From assembly GCF_013167455.1 (NCBI RefSeq), contig NZ_CP038328.1: a stretch of DNA of 64,000 nucleotides. One strand, written 5' to 3'. Both the position numbers and the translations under genes were made by a program. This stretch comes from Escherichia coli O157:H7 (GTDB lineage Bacteria; Pseudomonadota; Gammaproteobacteria; Enterobacterales; Enterobacteriaceae). Under the pieces are notes generated by a model, which worked only from the letters and a program-made list of their open reading frames with translations, was not told where the DNA came from and did not search any database. Shown one piece after another: positions 22,110-22,840 of the stretch. Each line of letters begins with the position of its first letter. The stretch's first letter is position 1.

Positions 22110-22128
22110 ATTTTATAACCCAGATACG

Positions 22129-22155
22129 GGCGCCAGAAATGGCGCCTTTTTTATT
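22129..22155 (+). terminator. Rho-independent terminator after J (GGCGCC-agaaat-GGCGCC then T6)
   Basis: Perfect 6-bp GC stem plus U-tract seen in sequence. Confidence 0.6.
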
Positions 22156-22176
22156 GCAGAAAAGCGAGAGGTAATT

Positions 22177-22776
22177 ATGCGTAAATTATGTGCTGTTATT
22201 TTGTCCGCAGTAGTCTGGCAGGTCGCCGCTGCTACGCCAGCGAGTGCAGCAGAACATCAGTCCACGCTGAGCGCGGGGTATCTCCATGCCTCGACGAACG
22301 TTCCCGGTAGTGATGATCTGAACGGGATTAACGTGAAATACCGTTATGAGTTTATGGACGCGCTGGGGCTGATTACGTCCTTCAGTTATGCCAATGCTGA
22401 GGATGAGCAAAAAACGCGCTACAGCGATACCCGCTGGCATGAAGATTCCGTGCGTAACCGCTGGTTCAGCGTGATGGCGGGGCCGTCTGTACGCGTGAAT
22501 GAATGGTTCAGCGCGTATGCGATGGCGGGTGTGGCTTACAGCCGTGTGTCGACTTTCTCCGGGGATTATCTCCGCGTAACTGACAACAAGGGGAAAACGC
22601 ACGATGTGCTGACCGGAAGTGATGACGGTCGCCACAGCAACACGTCTCTGGCGTGGGGAGCTGGCGTGCAGTTTAACCCGACCGAATCCGTGGCCATTGA
22701 TATTGCTTATGAAGGCTCCGGCAGTGGCGACTGGCGCACTGACGGTTTCATCGTGGGTGTCGGTTATAAATTCTGA
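22177..22776 (+). CDS. lom: Outer membrane protein Lom (Ail/PagC/OmpX family), lysogen-expressed moron
   Basis: 199 aa with signal peptide; beta-barrel-like alternating pattern; C-terminal GVGYKF; similarity to lambda Lom. Confidence 0.9.
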   Translation: MRKLCAVILSAVVWQVAAATPASAAEHQSTLSAGYLHASTNVPGSDDLNGINVKYRYEFMDALGLITSFSYANAEDEQKTRYSDTRWHEDSVRNRWFSVMAGPSVRVNEWFSAYAMAGVAYSRVSTFSGDYLRVTDNKGKTHDVLTGSDDGRHSNTSLAWGAGVQFNPTESVAIDIAYEGSGSGDWRTDGFIVGVGYKF

Positions 22777-22803
22777 TTAGCCAGGTAACACAGTGTTATG
22801 ACA

Positions 22804-22829
22804 GCCCGCCGGTTCAGGCGGGCTTTTTT
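22804..22829 (+). terminator. Rho-independent terminator after lom (GCCCGCC-ggttca-GGCGGGC then T6)
   Basis: 7-bp GC stem plus U-tract seen in sequence. Confidence 0.6.
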
Positions 22830-22840
22830 GTGGGGGGAAT

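What the first reader, a model, noticed from the sequence alone, without database searches (positions are those of the whole stretch)
22110..22840. lom as an insulated moron flanked by terminators
lom is bracketed by a strong terminator after J (22129-22155) and its own terminator (22804-22829), consistent with lysogen-phase expression independent of late transcription. Lom-family proteins contribute to adhesion and serum resistance.
Basis: partly seen in the sequence, partly recalled or inferred. Interest (0 to 1): 0.25.

Follow-up and report, generated by a model that had tools for sequence, protein, structure and literature searches.

The report
lom cassette between two late-operon terminators
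This is the ordinary lambda-type J–lom–stf arrangement in an E. coli O157:H7 prophage: both terminators are real and conserved, but the upstream one belongs to the tail-gene backbone and no promoter for lom is visible, so "self-contained insulated moron" overstates what the sequence shows.

Summary
It is flanked on the + strand by two strong hairpin-plus-T-run sites: 22128-22152 (dG -15.7) and 22803-22829 (dG -18.2). Sites this strong are about 18 times more frequent in the window than in shuffles. Hairpin 1 keeps its pairing through two compensatory double substitutions across 80 related loci.

- Hairpin 1 is not lom-specific. In 1184 of 5426 complete E. coli genomes the same hairpin abuts stf directly, with no lom.
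- That presence/absence polymorphism defines the lom unit as about 22156-22829: a 21-nt leader with a Shine-Dalgarno site, the ORF and its own terminator.
- Only 24 nt separate the T-run from the ATG. No credible sigma-70 promoter fits there, and lambda's candidate -10 (TATTAT) reads TATTGC here.
- lom GC (55.0%) matches the late region (55.6%).
- lom and stf are collinear with the late operon, so stf can only be reached by reading through both terminators. Papers citing the lambda ribosome-profiling study report that lom rises strongly late in infection.

My best reading is that lom is a late-operon cassette, transcribed mainly by antiterminated read-through and silenced or leaky in lysogens. 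It is the same arrangement as in lambda, so interest is low.

The parts
18585..22109 (+). J (tail tip attachment / host specificity protein). The mechanical ORF starts at TTG 18585; the RefSeq start corresponds to window 18636.
   Evidence: Seven gpJ-related Pfam domains in order. RefSeq annotates gpJ in the 100%-identical G5295 chromosome.
22128..22152 (+). Post-J intrinsic-terminator-like site: 8-bp stem, GAAA loop, then six T. It is a backbone feature, also present where lom is absent.
   Evidence: dG -15.7, z -3.45. Covariation. The identical hairpin sits directly before stf in the lom-less loci L086, L087, L088 and in 1184 of 5426 E. coli genomes.
22156..22176 (+). lom leader: 21 nt with the Shine-Dalgarno site GAGAGG at 22166-22171, 5 nt before the ATG. 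This is the left end of the lom indel cassette.
   Evidence: Read directly. The boundary comes from comparison with lom-less junctions. The leader is nearly invariant in 80 loci and homologous to lambda's leader.
22177..22776 (+). lom, an Ail/Lom family outer-membrane beta-barrel protein (199 aa). The signal peptide ends ...PASA|AE and the C-terminus is ...GYKF.
   Evidence: PF06316, E 2e-124, full length. 43% identity to lambda Lom. Matches solved lambda Lom 9wso_C (E 6e-48), OmpX and Ail.
22803..22829 (+). lom's own intrinsic-terminator-like site (8-bp stem, 7 G-C pairs, 6-nt loop, six T). This is the right end of the lom cassette.
   Evidence: dG -18.2, z -3.97. Same position and near-identical sequence in lambda. 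A hairpin followed by a T-run is kept in the variant loci, and in 36 loci it is replaced by an unrelated hairpin plus seven T at the same place.
22156..22829 (+). lom cassette as defined by presence/absence polymorphism, running from T-run to T-run (+/- 2 nt because both ends lie in T-runs). It holds leader, ORF, 3' UTR and terminator, with no room for a promoter.
   Evidence: Alignment by eye of the window with the lom-less junction ...GGCGCCTTTTTTATT|TGTGGAGTGAAT|ATG.
22830..24154 (+). stf ribosome-binding stretch (GTGGGGGGAAT) and stf, the side tail fibre gene. It lies downstream of both terminators, with 10 nt between the T-run and the ATG.
   Evidence: Pfam phage_tail_N, collagen and Phage_fiber_C domains. 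Sequence.

Best explanation
lom is an optional cassette made of a Shine-Dalgarno leader, the ORF and a terminator. It sits inside the late operon of a lambdoid O157:H7 prophage, inserted exactly after the T-run of a terminator that already separates J from stf in the backbone.

Both hairpins are genuine intrinsic terminators and act on ordinary RNA polymerase. In the repressed prophage they stop stray transcription from reaching lom and stf. They would also stop any lom transcript from entering stf.

During lytic growth the Q-modified, terminator-resistant polymerase coming from the late promoter reads through both. lom is then made together with J and stf, and this is its main mode of expression.

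This copy has no recognisable promoter of its own. Any expression in the lysogen would have to come from terminator leak or from a weak, non-consensus promoter overlapping hairpin 1.

Shown here: the anatomy, the conservation, the cassette boundaries, the absence of a consensus promoter and the collinearity with late genes. Inferred: the antiterminated read-through and the low or absent lysogen expression of this copy.
For: Terminators. Compensatory changes in hairpin 1.

The same layout occurs in lambda with an unrelated post-J hairpin and with an unrelated post-lom terminator in 36 IMG/VR loci. The layout is conserved, not just the sequence.

Lom-less junctions keep hairpin 1 and put stf 12 nt after it. 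They occur in 1184 of 5426 complete E. coli genomes.

The J 3' end is identical over the last 50 nt between lom-bearing and lom-less loci, so no lom-specific upstream DNA exists beyond the 21-nt leader.

Promoter scans:
- The consensus scan found none on the + strand in 20000-25000.
- The position-weight-matrix scan's best hits lie inside J, upstream of the terminator. They fall at the 0.2-0.6% tail of background, about what 377 scanned positions give by chance.
- The only hit whose -10 element lies in 22110-22176 would start transcription about 8 nt inside the ORF.
- Lambda's possible -10, TATTAT, corresponds to TATTGC here, and that stretch is unchanged in the related loci apart from one shorter T-run and one C-to-T variant.

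Composition: lom GC is 0.550 against 0.556 for the late region.

All late genes from holin to the tail fibre are on the same strand as lom.

Literature: lom expression increases dramatically late in infection (PMC12366544 and PMC9836094, citing Liu 2013). lom was not detected in a lambda lysogen in one array study, which also notes little is known about the lom promoter (PMC2147009).
Against: Lambda lom is repeatedly reported as expressed in lysogens (PMC1151598, PMC7067206, PMC12366544), so at least in lambda some non-late transcription reaches it.

Sequence scans cannot exclude activator-dependent, alternative-sigma or weak promoters.

No transcript data for this prophage were available to me.

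Q and the late promoter lie off the window and were not examined.

All lom-less junctions inspected share one junction sequence. They may descend from a single deletion event, which fixes the boundaries but not the direction of the event.
Confidence: 0.6

Rival explanations
1. One reading: lom is a classical autonomous moron. A sigma-70 (or activator-dependent) promoter lies in or overlaps 22110-22176 and drives lom in the repressed prophage. The upstream terminator shields it from outside transcription and the downstream one ends its transcript.
For: Lambda lom is reported as one of the few prophage genes expressed in lysogens (PMC1151598, PMC7067206, PMC12366544). Lambda has a fair -10 (TATTAT, 18939-18944) just after its weaker post-J hairpin (dG -9.7), which would give a leader of about 14 nt. 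lom is optional and carries its own terminator.
Against: Only 24 nt lie between the T-run and the ATG. The lambda -10 is TATTGC here. There is no -35 element. The position-weight-matrix score of the lambda candidate is itself unremarkable (3.43, top 1.4% of background). The cassette carries no upstream DNA beyond the 21-nt leader. Composition is not foreign. A promoter upstream of hairpin 1 would be terminated by it.
Confidence: 0.28
2. The hairpins act mainly as RNA 3'-end stabilisers or processing boundaries within the long late transcript. On this reading they set the relative amounts of J, lom and stf mRNA and are not transcription terminators.
For: They sit exactly at gene boundaries of a polycistronic operon that must be transcribed through them. 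Stem pairing is conserved by covariation, which any structural RNA role would also explain.
Against: Both have the full canonical intrinsic-terminator form: a G+C-rich stem immediately followed by six T. The T-run is invariant in nearly all loci, which a pure stability hairpin would not need. The sequence-unrelated replacements in lambda and in the 36-locus variant also carry T-runs. The two roles are not mutually exclusive.
Confidence: 0.08
3. The hairpins are chance inverted repeats with no function.
For: The generic scan of 20000-25000 found 6 terminator-like sites against 4.6 expected, so loose matches are common.
Against: At the strength of these two sites the window holds 8, against 0.45 expected. 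There are compensatory substitutions and 100% pairing in 13 variants. Position is conserved across sequence-unrelated hairpins.
Confidence: 0.02

Closest known systems
Bacteriophage lambda J-lom-stf(orf-401) region (NC_001416, 18903-19650)
   Same: Same gene order and strand. There is a hairpin plus T-run between J and lom. The leader is homologous, with a GAGAGG Shine-Dalgarno site. The lom 3' UTR and terminator are near-identical (AGCCCGCCGG..GGGCT plus six T), followed by GTGGGGTGAAT-ATG of stf. The last 27 residues of Lom are identical.
   Different: The Lom proteins are only 43% identical overall. Lambda's post-J hairpin is unrelated in sequence and weaker (6 bp, dG -9.7, four T, against 8 bp, -15.7, six T). 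It is followed by TATTAT, a possible -10 that is absent here. The C-terminal (receptor-binding) end of J differs.
Morons as defined for HK97/HK022 (Juhala et al. 2000; reviewed in PMC3594210)
   Same: Extra DNA present in some and absent from other otherwise collinear phages, lying between two late genes, with a factor-independent terminator at its 3' end. The product is non-essential for plaque formation in lambda (PMC10695390).
   Different: No promoter is visible within or next to the inserted DNA. Base composition does not differ from its neighbours. The upstream terminator is not part of the insert.
lom of the short-tailed Stx phages 933W and phi24B
   Same: An Ail/Lom family protein (32% identity) in the late/tail region with its own downstream hairpin plus T-run. 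Reported as expressed equally in lysogens and induced cells (PMC3342100).
   Different: It has a roughly 90-nt A+T-rich upstream region with room for a promoter, and no terminator directly upstream. The neighbours are different. It is a distant paralogue, not the same cassette.
Ail (Yersinia), OmpX (E. coli) and Rck/PagC (Salmonella): 8-stranded outer-membrane barrels
   Same: Sequence family PF06316 / OMP_b-brl. Significant matches to solved OmpX and Ail chains.
   Different: Those are chromosomal or plasmid genes with their own regulated promoters. The adhesion and serum-resistance roles of Ail and Rck (my own knowledge) have not been shown for this O157 Lom.

Membership tests
Moron (Juhala et al. 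2000; PMC3594210) | Extra DNA between genes that are adjacent in related phages | tested here: met
   A lom-less J-stf junction has the same J end, the same hairpin 1 and a homologous stf start. The junction occurs in 1184 of 5426 E. coli genomes.
Moron (Juhala et al. 2000; PMC3594210) | Own promoter allowing expression from the repressed prophage | tested here: inconclusive
   No sigma-70 consensus match on the + strand. The position-weight-matrix scan finds nothing usable between hairpin 1 and the ATG, and only 21 nt of cassette DNA lie upstream of the ATG. Non-consensus or activator-dependent promoters cannot be excluded from sequence.
Moron (Juhala et al. 2000; PMC3594210) | Factor-independent terminator at the 3' end of the insert | tested here: met
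   Hairpin 22803-22824 plus six T, dG -18.2, z -3.97. It lies inside the indel-defined cassette.
Moron (Juhala et al. 2000; PMC3594210) | Nucleotide composition different from surrounding genes | tested here: not met
   lom GC is 0.550 (GC3 0.60), against 0.556 for the late region, 0.505 for the last 1200 nt of J and 0.600 for stf.
Moron (Juhala et al. 2000; PMC3594210) | Transcribed in the lysogen independently of phage late transcription | not testable with these tools
   Only literature on lambda is available. It is reported as expressed in PMC1151598, PMC7067206 and PMC12366544, but was not detected in PMC2147009. I found no data for this prophage.
Ail/Lom outer-membrane protein family (PF06316) | Full-length match to the family profile above the curated cut-off | tested here: met
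   413.3 bits against a cut-off of 23, positions 1-199 of 199.
Ail/Lom outer-membrane protein family (PF06316) | Sec signal peptide and C-terminal aromatic residue of outer-membrane barrels | tested here: met
   By inspection of the translation: MRK, then a hydrophobic stretch, then PASA|AE; the C-terminus is GYKF. No dedicated predictor was run.
Ail/Lom outer-membrane protein family (PF06316) | Eight-stranded beta-barrel fold | not tested
   No structure was predicted. Sequence homology to solved lambda Lom (9wso_C, E 6e-48), OmpX (1qj8 group, E 7e-19) and Ail (3qra, E 2e-17) makes the fold very likely.
Intrinsic (Rho-independent) terminator | G+C-rich stem-loop immediately followed by a T/U tract on the transcribed strand, downstream of a stop codon | tested here: met
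   Both sites. Each has a T-tract on the + strand only. They begin 19 nt after the J stop and 27 nt after the lom stop.
Intrinsic (Rho-independent) terminator | Selection on the structure (pairing kept through substitutions) | tested here: met
   Hairpin 1: 2 of 8 pairs have compensatory changes, 100% of cells pair, and register-shift controls give 35-62%. Hairpin 2: its variants and the sequence-unrelated replacement still fold and are followed by a T-run.
Intrinsic (Rho-independent) terminator | Actual termination of RNA polymerase | not testable with these tools
   Needs Term-seq or in vitro transcription.
Q-antiterminated lambdoid late operon | The gene lies on the late strand, downstream of the lysis, head and tail genes, with no intervening divergent unit | tested here: met
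   RefSeq annotation of the identical locus has holin, lysozyme, terminase, portal, capsid, tail genes, J, lom and stf all on the + strand.
Q-antiterminated lambdoid late operon | Q gene, late promoter and Q-binding site upstream | not tested
   They lie upstream of the window's first bases; the window starts just before the lysis genes. Not examined.

The most novel reading that the evidence does not exclude
In the J-lom-stf lineage lom would not be a lysogenic-conversion moron at all. It would be a promoter-less late gene cassette that docks at, and is exchanged between, terminator T-runs of the tail operon. Its main job would be in the lytic phase, for example keeping released sibling phages from adsorbing to already-infected cells, as suggested for lambda Lom in PMC12366544. 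The O157-type copies, with a strong post-J terminator and no -10 element, would be essentially silent in lysogens.
Probability: 0.3. Interest if true: 0.4.

Novelty: already known. Interest (0 to 1): 0.12.

Why it matters
O157:H7 genomes carry many copies of this J-lom-stf module (up to 15-16 matching places per genome), and Lom is routinely listed as a prophage virulence or fitness factor that is made in lysogens. This copy appears to depend on late, antiterminated transcription. If so, its contribution to adhesion or serum resistance in uninduced cells would be small, and a lytic-phase role such as blocking adsorption would fit better. The result also gives a practical caution: a gene flanked by terminators is not thereby an autonomous unit. 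Here a presence/absence comparison shows which terminator belongs to which module. None of this changes the established picture of lambdoid late operons.

Tried and rejected
- Promoter search: the consensus scan and my own position-weight-matrix scan with a whole-window background gave nothing convincing. Candidates inside J are at chance level and lie upstream of the terminator.
- Rfam at E <= 1 over 21800-23100 gave only two sub-threshold chance hits, ST7-AS1_2 and Trp_leader. No known RNA family is present.
- HK97 as a lom-less comparator: its J end and stf are not homologous and the 207-nt spacer has no terminator-like site, so it is uninformative.
- A lom-less junction with the lambda-type J end: none in 5426 E. 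coli genomes, and none in the phage collection for the O157-type J end either.
- The 24B_1 small RNA of phi24B lies downstream of a different lom paralogue in a different context, so it is not relevant here.
- HnrS, a multicopy prophage small RNA of Sakai, is described only as lying in the late genes of Sp9, Sp10 and Sp12. No link to this spacer could be established.
- Transcript evidence for O157 lom: a search combining lom, transcription start site, prophage and O157 found no paper. [quoted passage not shown] Liu et al. 2013 and Casjens & Hendrix 2015 are not held.
- L009, where hairpin 1 follows a terminase-small-like ORF, is a deletion remnant and not an independent context.

Full report
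**What the window is.** The region 20500-24500 is 100% identical to a lambdoid prophage in E. coli O157:H7 strain G5295 and many other O157 chromosomes. It is 99.2% identical to phage VT1-Sakai. RefSeq annotation of the identical locus shows an uninterrupted + strand late operon: holin, lysozyme, terminase, portal, capsid, tail genes, gpJ, an Ail/Lom protein and the tail-fibre genes. These are followed by a DinI-like gene and the host genes btsS/btsR (yehU/yehT), which is the yehV integration site.

**Checking the observation.**
- J ends at 22109, lom is 22177-22776 and stf begins at 22841.
- The lom product is a full-length Ail/Lom protein (PF06316, E 2e-124). It is 43% identical to lambda Lom and matches solved lambda Lom, OmpX and Ail chains.
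- Site 1 has a stem at 22128-22147 with a GAAA loop and six T. As RNA it gives -15.7 kcal/mol, z -3.45.
- Site 2 has a stem at 22803-22824 and six T. It gives -18.2 kcal/mol, z -3.97.
- Neither site has a T-run on the minus strand.
- In my scan of the whole window, sites this strong (dG <= -15) number 8, against 0.45 expected from dinucleotide shuffles.
- In 80 related IMG/VR loci, hairpin 1 occurs as GCGCC/GGCGC, GCGTC/GACGC and GCACC/GGTGC, with one U-G intermediate. All 104 cells pair, two of the eight pairs show compensatory double changes, and register-shifted controls pair at only 35-62%.

**The layout is older than the sequences.** Lambda has the same order: J, a hairpin plus T-run, a leader with GAGAGG, lom, a hairpin plus six T, then GTGGGGTGAAT-ATG of stf. 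Its post-J hairpin is unrelated in sequence and weaker (6 bp, -9.7 kcal/mol). In 36 of the 80 IMG/VR loci the lom 3' flank is replaced by different DNA that again ends in a strong hairpin plus seven T directly before the stf ATG.

**Which terminator belongs to what.** I built a chimeric query from the last 150 nt of J and the first 150 nt of stf. It found E. coli prophages in which the two are only 58 nt apart. In three of them (KOr019, BL21, STEC299) the spacer reads ATTTTATAACCCAGATACGGGCGCCAGAAATGGCGCCTTTTTTATT|TGTGGAGTGAAT|ATG.
- This spacer holds the complete hairpin 1 and its T-run, identical to the window, followed at once by the stf ribosome-binding stretch.
- A 76-nt probe across this junction is covered at >= 80% in 1184 of 5426 complete E. 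coli genomes.
- Hairpin 1 is therefore a feature of the J-stf backbone, not of lom.
- The lom unit, as nature inserts or deletes it, runs from just after one T-run to the end of the next, about 22156-22829.
- It contains a 21-nt leader, the ORF, a 26-nt 3' UTR and terminator 2.
- The last 50 nt of J are identical in lom-bearing and lom-less loci, so no lom-specific DNA lies upstream of the leader.

**The promoter question.** Only 24 nt separate the last T of the T-run (22152) from the ATG (22177), and they include the Shine-Dalgarno site.
- The consensus scan finds no + strand promoter in 20000-25000.
- A position-weight-matrix scan, scored against all positions of the window, gives its best hits inside J (for example ATGACA-16-CAGCAT at 21990-22017). 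These sit at the 0.2-0.6% tail, roughly what 377 positions yield by chance. All lie upstream of hairpin 1, which would terminate them.
- The only hit whose -10 element lies in 22110-22176 (TTTATT-17-AATTAT) would start about 8 nt inside the ORF.
- In lambda the T-run is followed by TATTAT, a fair -10 that would give a leader of about 14 nt, although with a poor -35 and an unremarkable score.
- Here the same positions read TATTGC. Apart from one shorter T-run and one C-to-T variant further on, that stretch is unchanged in the related loci.
- lom is also not compositionally foreign (GC 0.550 against 0.556).
- By contrast, the distant lom paralogue of phage 933W (32% identity) has a 90-nt A+T-rich upstream region and no terminator in front. 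That is what a self-driven moron would be expected to look like.

**How it most likely works.** stf lies downstream of both terminators with 10 nt between the T-run and its ATG, so the tail-fibre genes can only be transcribed by polymerase that ignores both sites. In lambdoid phages that is the Q-modified late transcription complex (established knowledge; Q itself lies off the window). lom is therefore necessarily transcribed late.
- This agrees with reports that lambda Lom rises dramatically late in infection (PMC12366544 and PMC9836094, citing Liu et al. 2013).
- For unmodified polymerase the two sites are barriers. They keep stray transcription out of lom and stf in the repressed prophage.
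- Lambda lom is reported as expressed in lysogens (PMC1151598, PMC7067206, PMC12366544). One array study did not detect it and states that little is known about the lom promoter (PMC2147009).
- For this O157 copy, with a stronger post-J terminator and no -10, I infer that lysogen expression is lower than in lambda or absent.

**Function of the protein.** I tested nothing on function. For lambda, Lom has been linked to adhesion to buccal cells, while serum resistance is attributed to Bor (PMC1151598, PMC3594210). Over-expressed Lom blocks lambda-vir (PMC12366544). lom is dispensable for plaque formation (PMC10695390).

**Verdict.** It overstates autonomy, because the upstream terminator is a backbone element, no promoter is visible, and late transcription must pass through. 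The arrangement is the textbook lambda one and the locus is already annotated, so I rate it already known and of low interest.

Noticed in passing
window 22830-22840: The stf ribosome-binding stretch just after terminator 2 contains a G-run whose length varies between relatives. It is GTGGGGGGAAT (G6) here, GTGGGGTGAAT in lambda and most loci, and G9 in L008. This could be a slippage-prone tract affecting stf translation.
   Followed up: no
L013 and L009 (3' of lom), and 34 other IMG/VR loci: There is an alternative lom 3' flank of about 150 nt. It carries an extra inverted repeat (ACGCAGGTTCA...TGAACTGCGT) and a different strong terminator (AGCCCGTGGCGTCACTGCTGCGGGC plus seven T, dG -20.5) directly before the stf ATG. 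The Lom C-terminus also differs in L009 (…GIGYRF).
   Followed up: partly
L009 270-1484: This is a prophage remnant in which a terminase-small/Nu1-like ORF runs in frame through hairpin 1 and the leader into lom, giving a 404-aa ORF. The deletion breakpoint lies a few nt upstream of the hairpin.
   Followed up: partly
window 1111, 8311, 11512, 13192, 24461 (+); 51665 (-) / 51696 (+): My scan found other strong hairpin plus T-run sites. Several lie on the late strand: 1111 is just upstream of the holin gene, 24461 is after the last tail-fibre gene, and three are inside coding regions. A convergent bidirectional pair lies in the host part of the window.
   Followed up: no
window 18585-22109, compared with L002 (VT1-Sakai): J is a single intact ORF here, whereas in the VT1-Sakai record it is annotated as two overlapping truncated CDSs caused by a mutation.
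   Followed up: no
L089 6604-6693 (phage 933W): The distant lom paralogue of the short-tailed Stx phages has a 90-nt A+T-rich upstream region and its own terminator (7452-7470 plus T-run), with no terminator in front. Its cis-architecture differs from that of the J-lom-stf lineage.
   Followed up: partly
window 22177-22773 (protein): The PDB copy holds an entry 9wso with a chain named 'Outer membrane protein lom' (206 aa, lambda Lom). The other chains of that entry, possibly a binding partner, could not be looked up.
   Followed up: no
window 22186-22635 (-): A 149-aa GTG-initiated ORF lies antisense inside lom. It is probably a chance ORF in G+C-rich coding DNA, comparable to lambda's annotated orf206b antisense to stf.
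   Followed up: no
E. coli genomes H45 and H46: In two genomes the J end and the stf start are about 440 nt apart, with an annotated Ail/Lom gene between them. This suggests internally shortened lom variants.
   Followed up: no
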